From positions 1,656 to 65,655 of the forward strand of contig JBBRCK010000005.1 of NCBI GenBank assembly GCA_038205015.1: a stretch of 64,000 bases of DNA. Reading direction: 5' to 3'. This DNA is from Candidatus Levyibacteriota bacterium. Its GTDB lineage: Bacteria; Patescibacteriota; Microgenomatia; Levybacterales; UBA12049. Below are positions 39,087 through 64,000 of this stretch, piece by piece; the stretch's first letter is position 1, and each line of letters starts with the position of its first letter. The notes beneath the pieces were generated by a model, which saw nothing but the letters and a program-made list of their open reading frames with translations, had not been told where the DNA came from and did no database searches. A program made the position numbers and the translations under genes.

Positions 39087-39100
39087 AGTTTTAGGCTCTG

Positions 39101-39183
39101 GGCAAGTGGCGGAATGGTATACGCGGTAGTCTCAAAAACTACTAGCCGCAAGGCTGTGAGGGTTCGACTCCCTCTTTGCCCAC
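39101..39183 (+). tRNA. tRNA-Leu (anticodon CAA), long variable arm
   Basis: GGGCAAG acceptor / CTTTGCCC, D-arm GCGGAATGGTATACGC, anticodon stem GTAGT-CTCAAAA-ACTAC (CAA), variable arm TAGCCGCAAGGCTGTGA, T-arm GAGGGTTCGACTCCCTC; CCA not encoded. Coordinates +/-2. Confidence 0.8.
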
Positions 39184-58158: not shown

Positions 58159-59097
58159 CTATCTTCTTGGTGTATCTAGCTCTACCTGAACGTATTTTGC
58201 CGATGGAACTTCCAATTGAATCCTGTCTTTAATTTCATCTGTTAGTTTTTCTAATTCTCTTGTTCCAAGTCTTGATTTCATGTGCACAAACATATTTACT
58301 AAAAGTTTTTCAGATCCCAAGTGCAATGTTTTTATTTCCAAAACTTCGTCTACCTCCTCTATCTCCAAAGCGGCATTCTTTATTCTTTGCTCAGTTTCCA
58401 CCGAAGCGCTTTTACCAATTAAAAGTTCTCTTATTCCAAGTACTAAAAAAATTGCAAATATTGCCAACACAATTCCAATAACCATTGCTCCTAAACCGTC
58501 AAATCGTTGGTCTCCAGTAAAAGCATAAATTCCAAGAGCAATAGCCCCCAAAAGCGATGCGCAAGTTCCCATTAAATCTAAAATAAAAGTAGTTTTAGTT
58601 TCGACTAAAGAAGATCGGAAAAAAATTTTAAATATTAGTTTTGCCGGTCTTCTTCTTAAAAGACGCATAAAACTTAATGTAAAACCATATCCGTTAGTAA
58701 AAAAAGTCAAAATTAAAATAAATATAGCCAAATTAATATCTCTTATCGGCTCAGGGTGAAAAAACCTTTGCCAACCAAAATAAAATGATAAAGTAGATGT
58801 TAATCCAAACATTACTAACGCCGATAAAAGACTCCAAAAATAAATTTCGGTTCCGTAACCGAATGGATGAATTTTATCTTCTTTTTGATTTGAACGGAAA
58901 AATCCTATTAACAAAAATCCCGAGGATGCTAAATCGGATATCCCTTCTAAAAATTGGGTAAACATTATTATGCTCCCGGAAAGAATTGCAACTGAAAAAT
59001 TTAATACTACATCCAGAACATCTACTAAAAATGACGTAATAATTACTCTTTTTGAAGATATTCTTTGCTCTTTTAAAACTTCTGAAGATTTATCCAT
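58159..59097 (-). CDS. cation diffusion facilitator family metal efflux transporter
   Basis: 6 TM with conserved TM2/TM5 acidic/His sites and a C-terminal cytoplasmic CTD (..LHLGSEKLLVNMFVHM..). Confidence 0.75.
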   Translation of the reverse strand: MDKSSEVLKEQRISSKRVIITSFLVDVLDVVLNFSVAILSGSIIMFTQFLEGISDLASSGFLLIGFFRSNQKEDKIHPFGYGTEIYFWSLLSALVMFGLTSTLSFYFGWQRFFHPEPIRDINLAIFILILTFFTNGYGFTLSFMRLLRRRPAKLIFKIFFRSSLVETKTTFILDLMGTCASLLGAIALGIYAFTGDQRFDGLGAMVIGIVLAIFAIFLVLGIRELLIGKSASVETEQRIKNAALEIEEVDEVLEIKTLHLGSEKLLVNMFVHMKSRLGTRELEKLTDEIKDRIQLEVPSAKYVQVELDTPRR

Positions 59098-59123
59098 TAA
59101 TTTATTATAGCAATAATTTGTTA

Positions 59124-59660
59124 TTAATTTTTAGCTTGCACTAGCGCATCTGTTAAAGATGCAATAAATGCCGGAGACGTAGCTGAAGCGCCCGAAACTC
59201 CACTTACGTTTGCACTCTGTGCTTGTATTGCTTCCTGTTTTAATAAAGGTATTGCCTGAGAATTTATACTACGTGAAGTTCCATTATCATTTGGATATTG
59301 CAGAAAAATCACATCTGTAATTTTTCCACCGTTTATAATTGCTTGCACCTGAATATTTCCATAATATGCATCTTGAACACTTCCCGTAAAGCTTCCATTT
59401 TTATACATTCCCGCGGACACTGGCGTGGTTGTTGGAAGTAGTGGTGGATTTGTTAAAGCAATTGTTGGAAGGGGTTTATTTATATTTTGAACGGGCTTTG
59501 TGGCTTCCGACGGTGTTGGCGTTTCGGTTAAAAAGGGAGTTGGACTTAATTGATTCGGCTTAATACTTACAACAATATCATCACCTAATTTTGCGTTCCT
59601 AAGCCAAACTAAAAAAAATAAAACAGACAAAACCGTGGTAATTTGAAAATATTTTCTCAT
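59124..59660 (-). CDS. extracytoplasmic FMN-binding domain protein (FMN_bind; putative ApbE substrate)
   Basis: Signal anchor; ..YKNGSFTGSVQDAYYGNIQVQAIINGGKITDVIF.. and a candidate flavinylation site ..NVSGVSGASATSPAFI.. ([S/T]GA[S/T]-like). Confidence 0.6.
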   Translation of the reverse strand: MRKYFQITTVLSVLFFLVWLRNAKLGDDIVVSIKPNQLSPTPFLTETPTPSEATKPVQNINKPLPTIALTNPPLLPTTTPVSAGMYKNGSFTGSVQDAYYGNIQVQAIINGGKITDVIFLQYPNDNGTSRSINSQAIPLLKQEAIQAQSANVSGVSGASATSPAFIASLTDALVQAKN

Positions 59661-59716
59661 TATAATACTTAATTATTGTACATAATTTTCTTGAAATTTT
59701 CCTGAAATGATTATAA

Positions 59717-60364
59717 TTACTCTCGGGGACTTTCTTCCGTATGATTCTGATTAAAATTTGAGCTATCTTCTTTTTCCACTTCTTTTCGTCTGTCCTCTGT
59801 TTGTCTTAAAATATGCTCTATTTCTAATTTACTACCATCAGACGCTACTCTACTTGCATCCCGAAGATTATCTCCACTCTCTTTAATTATTTTATTGTTA
59901 ACAACTTTATTGTCACTTAATTCATTCTCATAATCTTTTATAGCATTTATTAAATTAGTTGAATTTTTCTTATTCCTTGGATCTGACAGTAATTTTACCT
60001 CCTGACTTCTCCTTTTTAATATTTCTCCCTTAAATGACGGGCTTACTTTCCTAGCAATATCTTCTGATATTCTTTTTACAGGATATAACGGTTGTCCGGG
60101 AAGACTATCCTGTGCACTAACAAGTGTTGAAAAACTTATAAAAAATAATATTACCAAGACGTAGGCAAAAAGTTGTCTATGAAGAGAAAAAAAGTTTTTT
60201 GAAGTATTTTTTTGTCTTAAAAATTTAGTCTTTATTTCAAAGGACCTTTCTATTTTTATTGAGTTTGAAAAATTCTTTGATAAAAGTGCCAGCTCTTCCG
60301 CTTCTTTATCTGTTGCACCCTCTTGTTTTAATTCTAGAATTAATTTATCTAAATCGTTACTCAT
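59717..60364 (-). CDS. membrane-anchored anti-sigma-factor-like protein (DUF5667-like extracytoplasmic domain)
   Basis: Cytoplasmic N-terminus, one TM (LFAYVLVILFFISFSTLV), extracytoplasmic ..PGQPLYPVKR..; ATGA overlap with the upstream ECF sigma gene. Confidence 0.5.
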   Translation of the reverse strand: MSNDLDKLILELKQEGATDKEAEELALLSKNFSNSIKIERSFEIKTKFLRQKNTSKNFFSLHRQLFAYVLVILFFISFSTLVSAQDSLPGQPLYPVKRISEDIARKVSPSFKGEILKRRSQEVKLLSDPRNKKNSTNLINAIKDYENELSDNKVVNNKIIKESGDNLRDASRVASDGSKLEIEHILRQTEDRRKEVEKEDSSNFNQNHTEESPRE

Positions 60365-60864
60365 TTTATTAATATTTCTTTTAATTTCTTAAGTCCTCTA
60401 AATTGTAATACTCTTATATTTACTTCTGTTGTGTCTAAAATTTCGGCAGCCTCTTTTGCAGATAAATCATCTACGAATCTTAATAACACAACCTCTTTTA
60501 GATTCTCTGGTAAAAATTTAAGGGCATTGTTAATTTTTCTTAAATTTTCATCTTTATGAATTCTCTCTATTAAATCTTCATCATAAGATGGCTCAAGGCC
60601 CATTTCTACTGTTTCTTCCAAAGAAACTTTTTTACCGTTTTTATGTTTTCTATAATGGTCTATTAAAATATTTTTGGCTGTTTTATACAATAATGCTTGT
60701 ATAAAATCATGCTTTAGCTTTTTCCAATTTTTCCAAATTCTTAAAAAGGCTTCGCTCGTAATATCCTCTGAAAGATAAGGATCTGAGGTACTTAAGTATA
60801 TGTACCTGTAAATTTTGTCCGAATATTTTATGTAAATAGTTTCGAATTCTTTTGAAAATTGCAT
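60361..60864 (-). CDS. ECF-subfamily RNA polymerase sigma factor (sigma-70 regions 2 and 4)
   Basis: Region 2 (..DITSEAFLRIWKNWKKL.., ..LYKTAKNILIDHYRK..) and region 4 HTH (..VVLLRFVDDLSAKEAAEILDTTEVNIRVLQFRGLKKL..); start at the internal Met MQFSKEF... Confidence 0.8.
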   Translation of the reverse strand: MQFSKEFETIYIKYSDKIYRYIYLSTSDPYLSEDITSEAFLRIWKNWKKLKHDFIQALLYKTAKNILIDHYRKHKNGKKVSLEETVEMGLEPSYDEDLIERIHKDENLRKINNALKFLPENLKEVVLLRFVDDLSAKEAAEILDTTEVNIRVLQFRGLKKLKEILIK

Positions 60865-60928: not shown

Positions 60929-61432
60929 ATGAACAAAACAATCACCATATTATTCTTAGCATTACTACTTATACTTACGCAAAATAAGACTCTTTCACTT
61001 GCCCAAACTAAATCTACAAATATTAATAATCAAATTGCAATCAGTGATGATTCAGATAAAGTTGAGATTTCAGATGATAATCACGGCAATTTAAACAGTG
61101 CGTCAAACACTAATAAAAATGACTATGAGAATGAATCTGAGGATGATAGTATTAACGGAAGAAAAATTGTTGCCAAACCTGCTTTATCGCTACCTCTACT
61201 AAAAGTGACTCCAACTGTTACTATTACTCCAACAACTACTCCTACTACGCCAGCTCTTGGAGTTTCTGGTAACTCATCTGATAACATAGTCGTAACCCCT
61301 ACACCTACTACCCAACAGTTAAGCCTACAGGATTCTAAAACAGAAAGTCCAAGCGCAGGTTTTGATTTTATGAAAGAAATAGAAAAACTTTTAATTTCTT
61401 TAAAAAAGATCATCTTTAATACTCTAGGTTAA
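60929..61432 (+). CDS. secreted Thr/Pro-rich hypothetical protein
   Basis: Signal peptide MNKTITILFLALLLILTQNKTLSLA; acidic N-domain; TPT repeats (TITPTTTPTTP..TPTPTT); divergent from the ECF sigma operon. Confidence 0.45.
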   Translation: MNKTITILFLALLLILTQNKTLSLAQTKSTNINNQIAISDDSDKVEISDDNHGNLNSASNTNKNDYENESEDDSINGRKIVAKPALSLPLLKVTPTVTITPTTTPTTPALGVSGNSSDNIVVTPTPTTQQLSLQDSKTESPSAGFDFMKEIEKLLISLKKIIFNTLG

Positions 61433-61528: not shown

Positions 61529-63061
61529 TCAAACTTTCTCTACATAACCAGGGAAAAAGTCTGTAATAATTTGCCTTCTTGATATATGTAAGCTTTTTAA
61601 AGTCTTCTCAAAATTCTGAACCATTAATTGCGGTCCGGAAATATAATATGTACGGTTTTTATAATCCGGCATTTCTTCGGCAATCATTTCTTGAGTAATA
61701 TATCCAACTTTCCCTGACCAACTTTGGGGAATATTGTCTTTATCTGTTAATGTAAAAATTGTTTTTACCCCATTTGCAACTGCAGTATTCAGAGTATCTA
61801 TAAAAAGAATCTCATTTGCTGTTCTGTTTGAGTAAAACAAAACAATATTTACTGAGAGATTTTTATCGGTAATGTACTTAATCATACTTCTAAATGGCGC
61901 TATTCCAACTCCCCCTGCAACAAATACCAGAGGCTTTTTTAAATCTTTTGGCAAGGTAAAATCTCCTGCCAATTGAGATGCAATAATTTTGTTTCCCTGC
62001 ATTATACCCAACAGTTCTTTTTTATATGTACTTGATGGATCATAAAACTTAACTGTCATAAATATATCGCTCTCCGTTGGAGATGAGGCAATACTAAAAT
62101 ACCTTCTATTTCCTCTCGAATCAGTGTTTTTATGAGGAAGAGTCCATTCCATGTACTGCCCTGGGATAAACTTAAAATCAGGCGTTCTATCGAATGCAAA
62201 AGCATAAGTGTCAGGTGATAATTGTTTTTTCCATTTTAAAGATAAATCTAATCTATAATTCGAACTTATAAAATACGAAAACACATTACCTATAATTAAG
62301 GCCATTTCGGGCGTAAAACCAAAGCTAATTAACCTAAGTTGCGGCGTTGCGTATAAAATAGCAACTAAATATCCATAATATCCCTGAAGCTTATTTGTTG
62401 TGGGAGAAGTCATGGGCTCTGTTAACATTACAAAAGTAAAGAAAAATAAAGCAGAATCTAATACACTTAACTTCCAGGTCGTTAATACGGATATTAAAGA
62501 TGCAGAATGTAACAATGATCCGATTGTAAGTACTAAAAGATAAACTATTAAAAAACTAAAGACTAATTTTTCTCTTCTAATTTTTCTTACCAGCAAAAGT
62601 CCACCAATAAAAACAAATGGCAACATTATTGGCGTACCTACCCACCAGGTTGCGCTGTTATTAGTTAAAAGCGCAATAATAACAACTGCCGCGGCAGCAG
62701 GATTGAATAAATGTCTTTTCTCCACGGTTAAAAGATATTTAACACCCATCGCAAAGACAGACGCTTCAATTAAAAATTTAAGATTAGTAGGAAATGAAAG
62801 TGGAATTATTAAAGCTAAAATAAGTGCCGTAATAAAAACAGACTCTACATTAGTAATTGCATTAAATAGTTTCGCTAGTAAAAAATTTGAAGCAAAACAA
62901 ACAACTACCAAAATTAGTGAACTGATAATTATATCTAGTGGACTAAAGGGTAAAAAATGAAAAAAGCCAAAAAGAATCGATATTAAAATTAATACGATTA
63001 AATAATACAGAGTTAATCTGTACATTGTTACCTTATTTAAAAGCGAGTCGATTAATTCCAT
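61529..63061 (-). CDS. fusion protein: N-terminal RnfD/NqrB-like membrane domain plus C-terminal ferredoxin-NADP-reductase-like FAD/NAD(P)-binding oxidoreductase domain
   Basis: N-terminal ~300 aa polytopic with ..RHLFNPAAAAVVI.. (the RnfD/NqrB NPA-type motif) and ..FVMLTEPMTSPTT.. (resembles the flavinylated region of RnfD/NqrB). C-terminal domain has RRYFSIASSP (RxYS FAD site) and GGVGIAPFRSM (NAD(P) site). Confidence 0.6.
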   Translation of the reverse strand: MELIDSLLNKVTMYRLTLYYLIVLILISILFGFFHFLPFSPLDIIISSLILVVVCFASNFLLAKLFNAITNVESVFITALILALIIPLSFPTNLKFLIEASVFAMGVKYLLTVEKRHLFNPAAAAVVIIALLTNNSATWWVGTPIMLPFVFIGGLLLVRKIRREKLVFSFLIVYLLVLTIGSLLHSASLISVLTTWKLSVLDSALFFFTFVMLTEPMTSPTTNKLQGYYGYLVAILYATPQLRLISFGFTPEMALIIGNVFSYFISSNYRLDLSLKWKKQLSPDTYAFAFDRTPDFKFIPGQYMEWTLPHKNTDSRGNRRYFSIASSPTESDIFMTVKFYDPSSTYKKELLGIMQGNKIIASQLAGDFTLPKDLKKPLVFVAGGVGIAPFRSMIKYITDKNLSVNIVLFYSNRTANEILFIDTLNTAVANGVKTIFTLTDKDNIPQSWSGKVGYITQEMIAEEMPDYKNRTYYISGPQLMVQNFEKTLKSLHISRRQIITDFFPGYVEKV

Positions 63062-63063
63062 AT

Positions 63064-63801
63064 TTAATTAGTGTACCTACTAAAACCTTCGGTATAAACT
63101 GCCTGCTTATCCCTCCTTATAATATAACTCTCAAATCCCTTTAACGTTACTATAAAGTCTAAACCTTTTTCTCCCATCGCAAATATTGCCGTTGCGAATC
63201 TGTCTGCTTCGTAAACATTTGGACCGATTACCGTAACGCTAACAATTTCACCAACATTATCTTTATTCTTTGGATTATAAATATGCCCCCCTCTTATATA
63301 GTTTCCCGAAGTTGCAATTCCTTTATCGCTTAATTTTACAATCTTTATTATTTCTTTTATGTTAAACGGATTTTGAATCCCAATTTTCCATTCTTTTCCC
63401 TTTTCATCTTTCCCATAAACCTGTATGTCTCCGGCAATTTCAACATAGATATTTTTATATCCCTTTTTAAGTAATTTTTTCGCTCCCTCATTAATTGCGT
63501 ATCCTTTGACAACTCCCGAAGGATCTAAAATTCCTTTATTATTAATATCAAAAAATCCATTTGTTTCCTGTTTTGTTTTTTCACACAAAAAAAGAATATT
63601 CTTCATTTCCTTACTATAATCTGATTCTTTTAGCTCTCCTCTGTTAATCTGAGAAATTTCACTGTCTTTTTTGTAAGTACTAAATTTTTTGTCAATATAG
63701 TGAAAATACGAAAAAACTTCATTAATATCTTCTTCTTTTATATCTCTATCAGCAACCTGTATCGTAACAGGCATACTCATAATGATTGCGGTTTTTTTCA
63801 T
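63064..63801 (-). CDS. apbE: FAD:protein FMN transferase (ApbE family)
   Basis: ..GIATSGNYIRGGHIYNPKN.. and ..EADRFATAIFAMGEKGL.. ApbE signatures; start at the internal Met MKKTAIIMSMPVTIQV.. Confidence 0.7.
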   Translation of the reverse strand: MKKTAIIMSMPVTIQVADRDIKEEDINEVFSYFHYIDKKFSTYKKDSEISQINRGELKESDYSKEMKNILFLCEKTKQETNGFFDINNKGILDPSGVVKGYAINEGAKKLLKKGYKNIYVEIAGDIQVYGKDEKGKEWKIGIQNPFNIKEIIKIVKLSDKGIATSGNYIRGGHIYNPKNKDNVGEIVSVTVIGPNVYEADRFATAIFAMGEKGLDFIVTLKGFESYIIRRDKQAVYTEGFSRYTN

Positions 63802-63825: not shown

Positions 63826-64000
63826 TATTCTTCCAATTCTTTGGCGGCGTTTCGATAAGCACAATAATCACAAGCTGATAAAGAATTTGGAATTGTGCTT
63901 AAATTTAGACATTTATAAGCATCTTCAACCGTTTTGCCAACCCAAGAATCATCTCCAATATATGGAATAATTTTTATATCAAACTCAAGTTTTGCATCAA
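63826..64000 (-). CDS. C-terminal fragment of a PP-loop ATPase-like protein (QueC-like CxxCxxRxxA zinc motif); gene continues beyond the window end
   Basis: Reverse frame reads ...IIPYIGDDSWVGKTVEDAYKCLNLSTIPNSLSACDYCAYRNAAKELEE*; only ~58 codons visible. Confidence 0.3.

What the first reader, a model, noticed from the sequence alone, without database searches (positions are those of the whole stretch)
61529..63061. Single-polypeptide RnfD/NqrB-like membrane domain fused to FNR-type NAD(P)H oxidoreductase
In canonical Rnf and Nqr complexes the FMN-carrying membrane subunit (RnfD/NqrB) and the NADH-oxidising flavoprotein (RnfC/NqrF) are separate proteins. Here one 510-aa ORF has ~7 TM helices with the family's NPA-type motif (RHLFNPAAA) and a Thr-rich TEPMTSPTT segment, followed directly by an RxYS/GxGxxP ferredoxin-reductase-type module. 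This may be a stripped-down two-flavin transmembrane oxidoreductase.
Basis: partly seen in the sequence, partly recalled or inferred. Interest (0 to 1): 0.65.

Follow-up and report, generated by a model that had tools for sequence, protein, structure and literature searches.

The report
Known NQR/RNF-like flavin electron exporter
The 510-residue gene is a real fusion of an RnfD/NqrB-type membrane domain to an NAD(P)H-oxidising flavoprotein, but it belongs to the "NQR/RNF-like" system already described by comparative genomics in 2021 and 2024, which is thought to pass electrons from NAD(P)H across the membrane to a flavin-carrying partner protein outside the cell.

Summary
ORF 61529-63061 (-) encodes 510 aa with an N-terminal PF03116 (NQR2_RnfD_RnfE) membrane domain and a C-terminal FNR-type FAD/NAD(P)H module. 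It is not a frameshift artefact: thousands of homologues are about 510 aa long and have the same junction. The AlphaFold2 model is confident, and the membrane domain alone matches only RnfD and NqrB chains in the PDB.

The architecture is not new. It is the "NQR/RNF-like" system of Méheust et al. 2021 and Huang et al. 2024, defined as a PF03116+PF00175 fusion with ApbE and an FMN_bind partner. All three parts are in the window: ApbE lies directly upstream, and the FMN_bind partner (59124-59660) lies downstream, behind a sigma/anti-sigma pair.

TEPMTSPTT is the family's T(D/E)P transmembrane motif (E215 = NqrB D346, a riboflavin ligand). The loop that carries the flavinylated Thr in RnfD/NqrB is deleted, and the covalent flavin site is Ser159 of the partner.

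The four NqrB riboflavin-ligand positions are conserved. This fits a wire NAD(P)H → FAD → non-covalent flavin → partner FMN → unknown external acceptor.

One point is unexplained: the linked ApbE lacks any signal peptide in all 69 related loci that encode one.

Novelty: already known. Interest is low to moderate.

The parts
61529..63061 (-). Fusion gene (510 aa + stop): RnfD/NqrB-like membrane domain fused to an FNR-type FAD/NAD(P)H module
   Evidence: ORF. Pfam PF03116 + PF00175. Homologues about 510 aa long. AlphaFold2 model with pLDDT 87.2 and pTM 0.82.
62258..63061 (-). Membrane domain, aa 1-268, about ten helical segments, RnfD/NqrB fold
   Evidence: Domain model pLDDT 89.7. The top 15 Foldseek PDB hits are all RnfD or NqrB chains (TM-score on query 0.57-0.77, E 7.6e-6 to 2.7e-3); the next hits have E>0.6. 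Family profile against E. coli RsxD: E 1.5e-19.
62696..62704 (-). N120-P121-A122, the family's NPA motif. N120 aligns with NqrB N203 (a riboflavin isoalloxazine ligand). H117, three residues upstream, aligns with NqrB N200.
   Evidence: Alignments. Ligand list from PMC9325719. N120 is present in 102/102 and H117 in 100/102 family members.
62624..62665 (-). Short extracytosolic loop (aa 133-146, with A137-T138-W139-W140). It replaces the ~85-residue 'five-helix linker' that carries the flavinylated Thr in RnfD/NqrB.
   Evidence: Profile positions 142-147 correspond to RsxD 143-227, which contains DGISQAT187PLD. P121..G153 spans 31-36 residues in all 102 members. Position 138 is S in 60, T in 19 and another residue in 23 of 102.
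62402..62419 (-). E215-P-M-T-S-P220, the T(D/E)P transmembrane motif. E215 aligns with NqrB D346 and RsxD D289. It is not a flavinylation site.
   Evidence: Alignments. NqrB D346 hydrogen-bonds the riboflavin ribityl chain. E/D215 is present in 102/102 members.
61532..62257 (-). FNR-type module (aa 269-510): FAD-binding beta-barrel plus NAD(P)H-binding Rossmann-like domain. It has no ferredoxin domain.
   Evidence: NCBIfam and PDB alignments to whole FNR modules. Foldseek TM-score on target 0.7-0.8 to cytochrome b5 reductase and the NqrF FAD domain. The whole protein has a single Cys, C55.
62093..62104 (-). R320-Y-F-S323, the R-x-(Y/F)-(S/T) FAD-binding motif
   Evidence: Read directly from the sequence. 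R320 is present in 102/102, F322 in 96/102 and S/T323 in 102/102 members.
61895..61915 (-). G383-G-V-G-I-A-P389, the GxGxxP nucleotide-binding motif
   Evidence: Read directly from the sequence. G384 is present in 100, and G386 and P389 in 102, of 102 members.
61553..61555 (-). F503, the C-terminal aromatic residue. By alignment coordinates it corresponds to NqrF F406.
   Evidence: Query 350-505 aligns with NqrF 249-408 of 8a1t_F. F503 is present in 101/102 members.
63064..63801 (-). ApbE flavin transferase (245 aa from the ATG at 63801), ending 2 nt before the fusion gene's start codon. It has no N-terminal signal peptide.
   Evidence: Pfam ApbE, E 4.9e-43. Gene call on L081. ApbE sits next to the fusion in 68 of 80 related loci. 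No hydrophobic N-terminus in 69/69.
59124..59660 (-). FMN_bind partner (178 aa): N-terminal membrane anchor, a Pro/Thr-rich tether, and an FMN-binding domain with the flavinylation motif V-S-G-A-S159. The Ser159 codon is 59184-59186.
   Evidence: Pfam FMN_bind, E 3.4e-7. Orthologous to the operon-encoded partners (E 2.5e-54 to L004), and the SGA(S/T) motif is conserved in all aligned partners but one, which has GGAT. The charge bias around the anchor indicates N-in/C-out.
59717..60864 (-). Context only: an ECF-type sigma factor (60361-60864) and a membrane anti-sigma-like protein (59717-60364), lying between the fusion gene and the FMN_bind gene
   Evidence: Pfam Sigma70_r2/r4; weak DUF5667 hit. 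Orthologues follow the fusion gene in L006 and L004. A sigma factor occurs in only 8 of 80 loci, so this looks like lineage synteny, not a system component.
58159..59097 (-). Context only: a CDF-family cation-efflux transporter, 26 nt downstream of the FMN_bind gene on the same strand
   Evidence: Pfam Cation_efflux, E 3.3e-21. A 66%-identical orthologue lies downstream of the fusion gene in L004. Absent from the other loci.

Best explanation
The gene is the core subunit of an 'NQR/RNF-like' system, a minimal transmembrane electron exporter that uses only flavins.

**Proposed path**
1. The cytosolic FNR-type module oxidises NAD(P)H on its FAD. NADH is the more likely donor.
2. Electrons pass to a non-covalent flavin held in the cytoplasmic half of the fused RnfD/NqrB-fold membrane domain. 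This is the site that binds riboflavin in NqrB and RnfD.
3. They then pass to an FMN that ApbE has attached covalently to Ser159 of a separate FMN_bind protein. That protein is anchored in the membrane by one helix and a flexible Pro/Thr-rich tether.
4. The membrane domain has lost the long loop that carries and caps RnfD/NqrB's own covalent FMN. The partner's FMN is therefore thought to dock in the vacated outward-facing pocket.
5. The partner's FMN then delivers electrons to an extracytosolic acceptor that is not identified here.

**Shown here**
- Domain architecture and fold.
- Deletion of the flavinylation loop.
- Conservation of the riboflavin-ligand positions and of the FAD and NAD(P)H motifs.
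- A conserved three-gene association.
- Absence of Fe-S or haem ligands.

**Inferred**
- Cofactor occupancy.
- Direction of electron flow.
- Docking of the partner.
- Donor specificity.
- The acceptor.
For: **Architecture and fold**
- PF03116 + PF00175 in one protein.
- Confident models: pLDDT 87.2 with pTM 0.82 for the whole protein, and pLDDT 89.7 for the membrane domain.
- The membrane domain hits only RnfD and NqrB chains. The C-terminal half hits FNR-family modules, including the NqrF FAD domain.

**Fit to the published system**
- It meets the published operational definition and model.

**Conserved partners**
- The order FMN_bind → ApbE → fusion is found in 50 of 80 related loci, with variants in most of the others.
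- The window has ApbE adjacent and an orthologous FMN_bind gene 1.9 kb downstream.

**Flavin sites**
- The RsxD 143-227 loop that contains T187 has no counterpart. The helix V-VI linker is short in all 102 members.
- The NqrB riboflavin ligands T162, N200, N203 and D346 align with T78, H117, N120 and E215. These positions are conserved in 100-102 of 102 members.
- In Rnf, the covalent FMN of RnfD, the riboflavin and a cytosolic cluster lie 7.7 and 11.7 Å apart. The RnfD fold can therefore span the membrane with two flavins.
- The partner carries the conserved motif SGA(S/T) and an N-in/C-out anchor.

**No other cofactors or subunits**
- The fusion has one Cys, so an Fe-S cluster or a c-type haem is excluded.
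- No RsxA, B, C, E or G homologues occur in the window or in the 81 related loci.

**Donor**
- Position 417 is acidic in 90 of 102 members. From general knowledge of FNR-family enzymes, this is typical of NADH-preferring members.
Against: - No experiment on any member of this family was found in the searchable literature. Cofactor content, direction of flow and acceptor all rest on homology.
- The linked ApbE has no signal peptide or membrane anchor in 69 of 69 cases, although its presumed substrate domain is extracytosolic. How and where flavinylation happens is unexplained.
- The residue equivalences with NqrB rest on a weak pairwise alignment (the first segment scores 4.5 bits). The equivalent RsxD alignment is stronger.
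- I could not inspect model coordinates, so I did not measure distances between the FAD site, the putative flavin pocket and the outer pocket.
- No terminal reductase or other acceptor-related gene recurs in the neighbourhood.
- In this window the partner gene is not in the same operon as the fusion gene.
Confidence: 0.75

Rival explanations
1. The ORF is an assembly or frameshift artefact that joins a separate rnfD-like gene to an FNR-like gene.
Against: - 6816 homologues exist, and the best 120 are about 510 aa long with both domains.
- At least 589 species-level genomes encode full-length relatives.
- An identical protein sits on an independent Logan assembly contig.
- The junction is 40-44 residues long in all 102 diverse members.
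- AlphaFold2 packs the two halves confidently, with pTM 0.82.
Confidence: 0.01
2. It is a divergent RnfD/NqrB subunit of a conventional multi-subunit Rnf or Nqr ion pump whose other subunits are encoded elsewhere in the genome.
For: - PF03116 scores above its gathering threshold.
- The protein has the RnfD/NqrB fold.
- The NPA and T(D/E)P motifs are conserved. In RnfD these include the proposed Na+/riboflavin site, N124/D248.
Against: - The flavinylated five-helix linker is deleted.
- No RsxA, B, C, E or G homologues occur in the window or in 81 related loci.
- The C-terminus, which in RnfD holds RnfC, is replaced by a fused FNR module.
- The conserved partners are only ApbE and FMN_bind.
Confidence: 0.03
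3. The flavinylated FMN_bind domain is cytosolic, or is flavinylated and acts on the cytosolic face. It would relay electrons between the FNR module and the membrane domain. The membrane domain would then reduce a membrane or external acceptor by itself, or would use the redox reaction to move an ion.
For: - The linked ApbE has no export signal in 69 of 69 loci, so a cytosolic substrate would be the simplest reading.
- For the Levybacteria-like partners, including the window's, the K/R counts on the two sides of the anchor are equal at 3 and 3.
Against: - Across the family, the charge bias of the partner's anchor gives N-in/C-out in 50 cases and N-out in none.
- The N-terminus before the anchor is only MKK or MRK, which is hard to translocate.
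- The long Pro/Ser/Thr-rich tether after the anchor is typical of extracytosolic linkers.
- The loss of the outer capping loop of RnfD opens a pocket on the outer face.
- The published AlphaFold-Multimer model docks the partner on the extracytosolic side.
Confidence: 0.1
4. The architecture is as in the best explanation, but the specific physiological job is reduction of metal at the cell surface (for example Fe(III) to Fe(II) for uptake or homeostasis), not a general electron sink.
For: - Méheust et al. note that six NQR/RNF-like clusters carry a VIT1 ferrous-iron transporter.
- In the window a CDF cation-efflux gene follows the FMN_bind gene by 26 nt. An orthologous CDF gene lies near the system in L004.
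Against: - A CDF gene was found in only 1 of 80 related loci.
- No metal-uptake genes recur.
- The local association is explained equally well by Levybacteria-specific synteny.
Confidence: 0.2

Closest known systems
NQR/RNF-like flavinylation-associated system (Méheust et al. 2021, eLife, PMC8238504; Huang et al. 2024, mSystems, PMC11334425)
   Same: - A single protein with an N-terminal PF03116 domain and a C-terminal PF00175 domain.
- Clustered with ApbE and an NqrC/RnfG-like FMN_bind protein.
- The membrane domain lacks the NqrB/RnfD flavinylation Thr.
- Found in the candidate phyla radiation.
- Proposed one-way flow from NAD(P)H to an extracytosolic FMN.
   Different: - **Gene order.** The usual order is FMN_bind → ApbE → fusion. 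In the window the FMN_bind gene has moved 1.9 kb downstream, behind an ECF sigma/anti-sigma pair and next to a CDF transporter.
- **Acceptor residue.** It is Ser (SGAS) in the window and its Levybacteria-like relatives, and Thr in most others.
- **Distribution.** My scan finds the family in at least 589 species genomes, with many Chloroflexota. The 2021 survey reported 127 genomes.
RnfD / NqrB, membrane subunits of the Rnf and Na+-NQR complexes (PDB 7zc6_D, 8rbq_D, 9eri_D, 7xk3_B)
   Same: - Same fold.
- Same NPA and T(D/E)P motifs.
- Counterparts of the NqrB riboflavin ligands T162, N200, N203 and D346 are T78, H117, N120 and E215.
- The C-terminus is on the cytoplasmic side.
   Different: - The ~85-residue linker between the two five-helix halves is reduced to about 10 residues. 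In RnfD/NqrB this linker bears the flavinylated Thr and caps the FMN.
- N200 is replaced by His.
- There are no RnfA/E, RnfB/C or NqrA/D/E partners.
- A dehydrogenase module is fused to the C-terminus.
NqrF FAD/NADH domain and other FNR-family reductases (cytochrome b5 reductase, flavohaemoglobin reductase domain, BenC, Fre)
   Same: - Two-domain FNR fold.
- R-x-(Y/F)-(S/T) and GxGxxP motifs.
- A C-terminal aromatic residue that aligns with NqrF F406.
   Different: - No N-terminal membrane helix and no 2Fe-2S ferredoxin domain as in NqrF; the protein has one Cys.
- Not specifically NqrF-like. Flavohaemoprotein, BenC and cytochrome b5 reductase score as well or better.
NOX/FRE-type NAD(P)H oxidases and ferric reductases (for example Streptococcus pneumoniae NOX, PDB 8qt6)
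   Same: The same design logic: a membrane electron-wire domain followed directly by a cytosolic FNR-type dehydrogenase domain in one polypeptide. The dehydrogenase domains match structurally.
   Different: The NOX wire is two b-type haemes in a six-helix ferric-reductase domain. Here the wire is an RnfD-fold domain with no haem ligands and is presumably built of flavins. It needs a separate flavinylated partner.
Listeria-type flavin-based extracellular electron transfer (Ndh2, EetA/B, PplA, FmnB)
   Same: NADH-derived electrons are delivered to an ApbE-flavinylated, membrane-tethered extracytosolic FMN_bind protein.
   Different: That system passes electrons through a quinone pool and uses an exported lipoprotein ApbE (FmnB). 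Here there is no quinone step, and the ApbE has no export signal.

Membership tests
NQR/RNF-like system (Méheust 2021 operational definition) | One protein with an N-terminal NqrB/RnfD domain (PF03116) and a C-terminal NqrF-type NAD-binding domain (PF00175) | tested here: met
   Both families score above their gathering thresholds in the 510-aa protein. The definition is quoted.
NQR/RNF-like system (Méheust 2021 operational definition) | Lies in a flavinylation-associated gene cluster: ApbE and/or FMN_bind within five genes, and at least one of them with a predicted signal peptide | tested here: met
   ApbE is the adjacent upstream gene, and FMN_bind is the fourth gene downstream. FMN_bind has an N-terminal hydrophobic anchor by hydropathy. 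SignalP itself was not run.
NQR/RNF-like system (Huang 2024 description) | The membrane domain lacks the flavinylated Thr that is conserved in NqrB/RnfD | tested here: met
   The RsxD 143-227 loop with T187 has no counterpart. The linker is short in 102/102 members. The only nearby hydroxyl residue, T138, is not conserved: 23 of 102 members lack S or T there.
NQR/RNF-like system (Huang 2024 description) | An NqrC/RnfG-like partner with an ApbE flavinylation motif | tested here: met
   FMN_bind domain. The motif VSGAS159 aligns with the conserved (D/N)xxSGA(S/T) motif of 69 operon-encoded partners.
NQR/RNF-like system | The two subunits form a complex that transfers electrons from NAD(P)H to the partner's FMN | not testable with these tools
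   This needs biochemistry. Multimer modelling was not available, and no experimental paper was found.
Canonical RnfD/NqrB subunit | RnfD/NqrB membrane fold (two inverted five-helix halves) | tested here: met
   The top 15 Foldseek hits are all RnfD or NqrB chains. The model has about ten helical segments.
Canonical RnfD/NqrB subunit | Covalent FMN on a conserved Thr in the linker between the two halves (RsxD/RnfD T187, NqrB T236) | tested here: not met
   The linker is deleted.
Canonical RnfD/NqrB subunit | Riboflavin-site residues (NqrB T162, N200, N203, D346) | tested here: inconclusive
   The aligned residues T78, H117, N120 and E215 are conserved in 100-102 of 102 members. N200 is replaced by His, the NqrB pairwise alignment is weak, and flavin occupancy cannot be tested here.
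Canonical RnfD/NqrB subunit | Encoded together with RnfA/E (NqrD/E), RnfG (NqrC) and the RnfB/C or NqrA/F subunits | tested here: not met
   No RsxA, B, C, E or G homologues in the 64-kb window or in the flanks of 81 related loci. The only related partner is the FMN_bind protein. The rest of the genome was not available.
FNR-family FAD/NAD(P)H oxidoreductase module | Two-domain fold with the R-x-(Y/F)-(S/T) FAD motif, the GxGxxP nucleotide motif and a C-terminal aromatic residue | tested here: met
   Profile and structural matches. Motif conservation. F503 corresponds to NqrF F406 by alignment coordinates.
NqrF subunit proper | N-terminal membrane helix plus a 2Fe-2S ferredoxin domain ahead of the FAD/NADH module | tested here: not met
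   The FNR module starts directly after the last helix of the RnfD-like domain. The protein has a single Cys. The NqrF equivalog scores 58.9 bits against a cut-off of 295.

The most novel reading that the evidence does not exclude
The two-subunit system may not be just a passive electron exporter. It may keep the ion-coupling site of RnfD/NqrB: N120 and E215 align with the RnfD N124/D248 pair, which has been proposed to bind Na+ and riboflavin. If so, it would be the smallest known redox-driven cation pump, or an ion-gradient-assisted exporter, in organisms that lack a respiratory chain. In addition, its partner may be flavinylated in the cytosol by a signal-less ApbE before export, a maturation route not described for extracytosolic flavoproteins.
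Probability: 0.1. Interest if true: 0.7.

Novelty: already known. Interest (0 to 1): 0.3.

Why it matters
Candidate-phyla-radiation (Patescibacteria) bacteria generally lack respiratory chains and quinones. A self-contained system of two proteins plus a maturase that exports electrons from NAD(P)H would give them a way to regenerate NAD(P)+, or to carry out redox chemistry at the cell surface. It would also be a compact, all-flavin analogue of the haem-based NOX enzymes. The system has been predicted twice by comparative genomics but never tested.

This window adds three things:
- A clear member from a Levybacteria-like genome with rearranged gene order.
- Residue-level targets for testing: T78, H117, N120 and E215, Ser159 of the partner, and F503.
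- The open question of how an ApbE with no signal peptide serves an external acceptor domain.

Tried and rejected
**Hypotheses rejected**
- *Frameshift artefact.* Rejected on conservation.
- *TEPMTSPTT as the flavinylation site.* Rejected. It is the T(D/E)P transmembrane motif.
- *A137-T138-W-W in the short outer loop as a remnant flavinylation site.* It aligns with RsxD QMTSW142, not with T187. It lacks the Asp and Gly of the ApbE motif, and 23 of 102 members have no S or T there. I consider it unlikely but not excluded for individual members.
- *Other Rnf/Nqr subunits nearby.* None found.

**Searches that gave nothing useful**
- *A recurring terminal reductase or acceptor gene in the neighbourhood.* Besides ApbE and FMN_bind, the only recurring neighbours were OmpR-type response regulators (23 of 80 loci) and ABC-transporter components.
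- *Promoter and terminator scan of 58-64 kb.* Promoter-like sites were no more frequent than in shuffled sequence. The terminator-like sites (7, against 2.1 expected) all lie inside coding regions.
- *Rfam and tRNA scans.* They found only one tRNA-Leu, far from the locus.

**Resources not available**
- The NQR/RNF-like sheet of the 2021 supplement, which is truncated in the held copy. I could not check whether that survey predicted signal peptides for these ApbEs.
Full report
**Observation**

The window has an ATG-started ORF of 510 codons at 61529..63061 on the minus strand. Pfam finds NQR2_RnfD_RnfE (PF03116; E 1.1e-10, 41.9 bits against a cut-off of 27.7; two stretches, the better one at residues 150-265) and NAD_binding_1 (PF00175; E 3.3e-16; residues 380-484). 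NCBIfam aligns residues ~280-503 with complete FNR-type reductase modules. Flavohaemoprotein, BenC, Fre and NqrF all match, none at equivalog level.

**Not an artefact**

- A search of 5.8 billion proteins returned 6816 hits at E<=1e-5. The best 120 are 56-100% identical, almost all are 497-518 aa long, and they carry both domains.
- A scan of species-representative genomes found at least 589 genomes that encode full-length relatives. The best 80 are Patescibacteria (Levybacteria are closest at 65% identity; also other Microgenomates, Paceibacteria, Saccharimonadales and Peregrinibacteria) and Chloroflexota.
- The membrane domain alone has 1516 cluster representatives at E<=0.001. Most of the best 150 are about 490-515 aa long.
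- In 102 diverse members (36-49% identical to the window protein) the junction N259..G301 is always 40-44 residues.
- An identical protein lies on an independent Logan contig.

**Fold**

AlphaFold2 with a 50-sequence alignment gives pLDDT 87.2 and pTM 0.82 for the whole protein, and pLDDT 89.7 and pTM 0.88 for residues 1-270 alone.

- Foldseek against the PDB with the whole model finds FNR-family modules: cytochrome b5 reductase, the NqrF FAD domain, flavohaemoglobin and the SpNOX dehydrogenase domain.
- With the membrane domain alone, the top 15 hits are all RnfD or NqrB chains (TM-score on query 0.57-0.77, E 7.6e-6 to 2.7e-3). The next hits are Rh and urea transporters at E>0.6. RnfD itself is known to resemble those transporters.
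- The model has about ten helical segments, as expected for the two five-helix halves of RnfD, not about seven.

**Already described**

Méheust et al. 2021 define an 'NQR/RNF-like' system as a PF03116+PF00175 fusion inside a flavinylation gene cluster. They found it in 127 genomes, mainly Actinobacteria and the candidate phyla radiation. [quoted passage not shown]

Huang et al. 2024 add an AlphaFold-Multimer model. They note that the membrane domain lacks the NqrB/RnfD flavinylation Thr. They suggest that the partner's covalent flavin samples a non-covalent flavin site in the membrane domain.

I found no experimental study of the system.

**The partners are in the window**

- *ApbE.* The gene directly upstream (63064-63801) is an ApbE (E 4.9e-43).
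- *Usual gene order.* In 80 related loci the dominant order is FMN_bind → ApbE → fusion (50 loci, with variants in most of the rest). ApbE or FMN_bind is each present in 68 of the 80.
- *Upstream of ApbE.* In the window's organism the gene upstream of ApbE is a PD-(D/E)XK nuclease-family gene, not FMN_bind.
- *The partner.* An FMN_bind protein is encoded 1.9 kb downstream at 59124-59660. It is orthologous to the operon-encoded partners (E 2.5e-54 to L004). It carries the conserved motif, here V-S-G-A-S159. Ser is the acceptor in the Levybacteria-like group and Thr in most others.
- *How it moved.* Close relatives L006 and L004 have FMN_bind-ApbE-fusion followed by orthologous sigma, anti-sigma and (in L004) CDF genes. 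In the window's lineage the FMN_bind gene has therefore simply moved behind the anti-sigma gene.
- *Regulators and transporter.* The sigma/anti-sigma pair and the CDF transporter are rare elsewhere: sigma occurs in 8 and CDF in 1 of 80 loci. I read them as lineage synteny and not as components of the system.

**The flavinylation site**

A profile of the family's membrane domain aligns with E. coli RsxD (RnfD) at E 1.5e-19, in two blocks. Profile positions 22-141 match RsxD 20-142, and positions 148-263 match RsxD 228-338. RsxD 143-227 contains DGISQAT187PLD, and only six profile positions correspond to it.

In C. tetanomorphum RnfD this segment is the 'five-helix linker', which covers the covalently bound FMN. 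In all 102 family members P121..G153 spans only 31-36 residues.

It is therefore a transmembrane family motif, not a flavin attachment site. The short remaining loop contains A137-T138-W-W. T138 aligns with RsxD T140/S141, the ApbE motif is incomplete there, and 23 of 102 members lack a hydroxyl residue at that position.

**A retained internal flavin site**

The cryo-EM study of V. cholerae NQR places riboflavin inside NqrB on the cytoplasmic side, hydrogen-bonded by T162, N203, N200 and D346. In the pairwise alignment these positions correspond to T78, N120, H117 and E215 of the window protein. Across 102 diverse members:

| Position | Conservation |
|---|---|
| 78 | T or S in 102 |
| 117 | H in 100 |
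| 120 | N in 102 |
| 215 | E or D in 102 |

In Rnf, the covalent FMN of RnfD, the riboflavin and the nearest cytosolic cluster are 7.7 and 11.7 Å apart. The RnfD fold can therefore carry electrons across the membrane with two flavins.

The fusion protein has one Cys and no haem motif, so flavins are the only plausible cofactors.

The FNR module keeps these residues in the 102 members:
- R320 in 102
- F322 in 96
- S or T at 323 in 102
- G384, G386 and P389 in 100-102
- F503 in 101; it corresponds to NqrF F406 by alignment coordinates
- an acidic residue at 417 in 90

By general knowledge of the FNR family, the acidic residue at 417 suggests NADH over NADPH.

**Mechanism proposed**

NAD(P)H → FAD (cytosolic FNR module) → non-covalent flavin in the cytoplasmic half of the membrane domain → FMN covalently bound to Ser159 of the tethered partner → unknown extracytosolic acceptor.

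The partner's FMN is thought to dock in the outer pocket left open by loss of the capping linker. Shown here are the architecture, the loop deletion, the residue conservation and the gene association. Cofactor occupancy, direction of flow, docking, donor and acceptor are inferred.

**An unexplained point**

All 69 ApbE genes linked to the fusion, and the window's own, encode bare domains of about 245 aa. They begin MK.TR.(I/L)MGMP.T.E, with no hydrophobic N-terminus.

The partners begin with MKK or MRK, followed by a hydrophobic anchor and a Pro/Ser/Thr-rich tether. Their charge bias indicates N-in/C-out in 50 cases and N-out in none.

An apparently cytosolic flavin transferase thus serves an apparently external domain. 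Text searches of the two papers did not find this discussed. Three explanations are possible:
- The C-terminal motif is flavinylated before translocation.
- ApbE is exported by a non-classical route.
- The partner has a different topology, which would change the electron path.

**Verdict**

Novelty is 'already known' as a predicted system that has not been characterised experimentally. Interest is 0.3.

Noticed in passing
window 63064-63801 (-); ApbE genes in loci L001-L080: The ApbE linked to this system is a bare domain of about 245 aa, with no signal peptide, lipobox or membrane helix, in 69 of 69 cases. Its presumed substrate domain appears to be extracytosolic. How the partner is flavinylated is unexplained, and text searches of the two papers on the system did not find it discussed.
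   Followed up: partly
window 58159-60864 (-): The FMN_bind partner gene lies in a co-oriented, tightly spaced run: ECF sigma, anti-sigma, FMN_bind, CDF transporter (a 4-nt overlap, then gaps of 56 and 26 nt). It is not next to ApbE as in most relatives. Relatives L006 and L004 keep the usual order, with orthologous sigma, anti-sigma and CDF genes downstream. The partner may therefore have come under ECF-sigma control in this lineage.
   Followed up: partly
window 59184-59186 (-), Ser159 of the FMN_bind protein; partners in L001-L080: The flavin acceptor residue in the motif SGA(S/T) is Ser in the window and in most Levybacteria-like relatives, and Thr in most Chloroflexota and other Patescibacteria. 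The usual Asp upstream of the motif is Ser in the window and in L006 (NVSGVSGAS).
   Followed up: partly
window 60929-61432 (+): A 167-aa ORF, convergent with the fusion gene and divergent from the sigma gene. It has a hydrophobic N-terminus and a Thr/Pro-rich middle, and no Pfam match. It was called as a gene on the Logan contig L081.
   Followed up: no
loci L001-L080, within 5 kb of the fusion gene: OmpR-type response regulators recur near the operon in 23 of 80 related loci. ABC-transporter ATPase, permease and HlyD-like genes recur in 6-13 loci. No terminal reductase recurs.
   Followed up: partly
window 63865-64000 (-) and L081 407-1153: The gene upstream of ApbE encodes a PD-(D/E)XK nuclease-family protein (PF12705), cut off by the window end. 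The same family lies upstream of the operon in four Levybacteria-like loci.
   Followed up: no
window 39100-39183 (+): This is the only RNA gene detected in the 64-kb window, a tRNA-Leu (CAA). Rfam found no other family at gathering thresholds.
   Followed up: no
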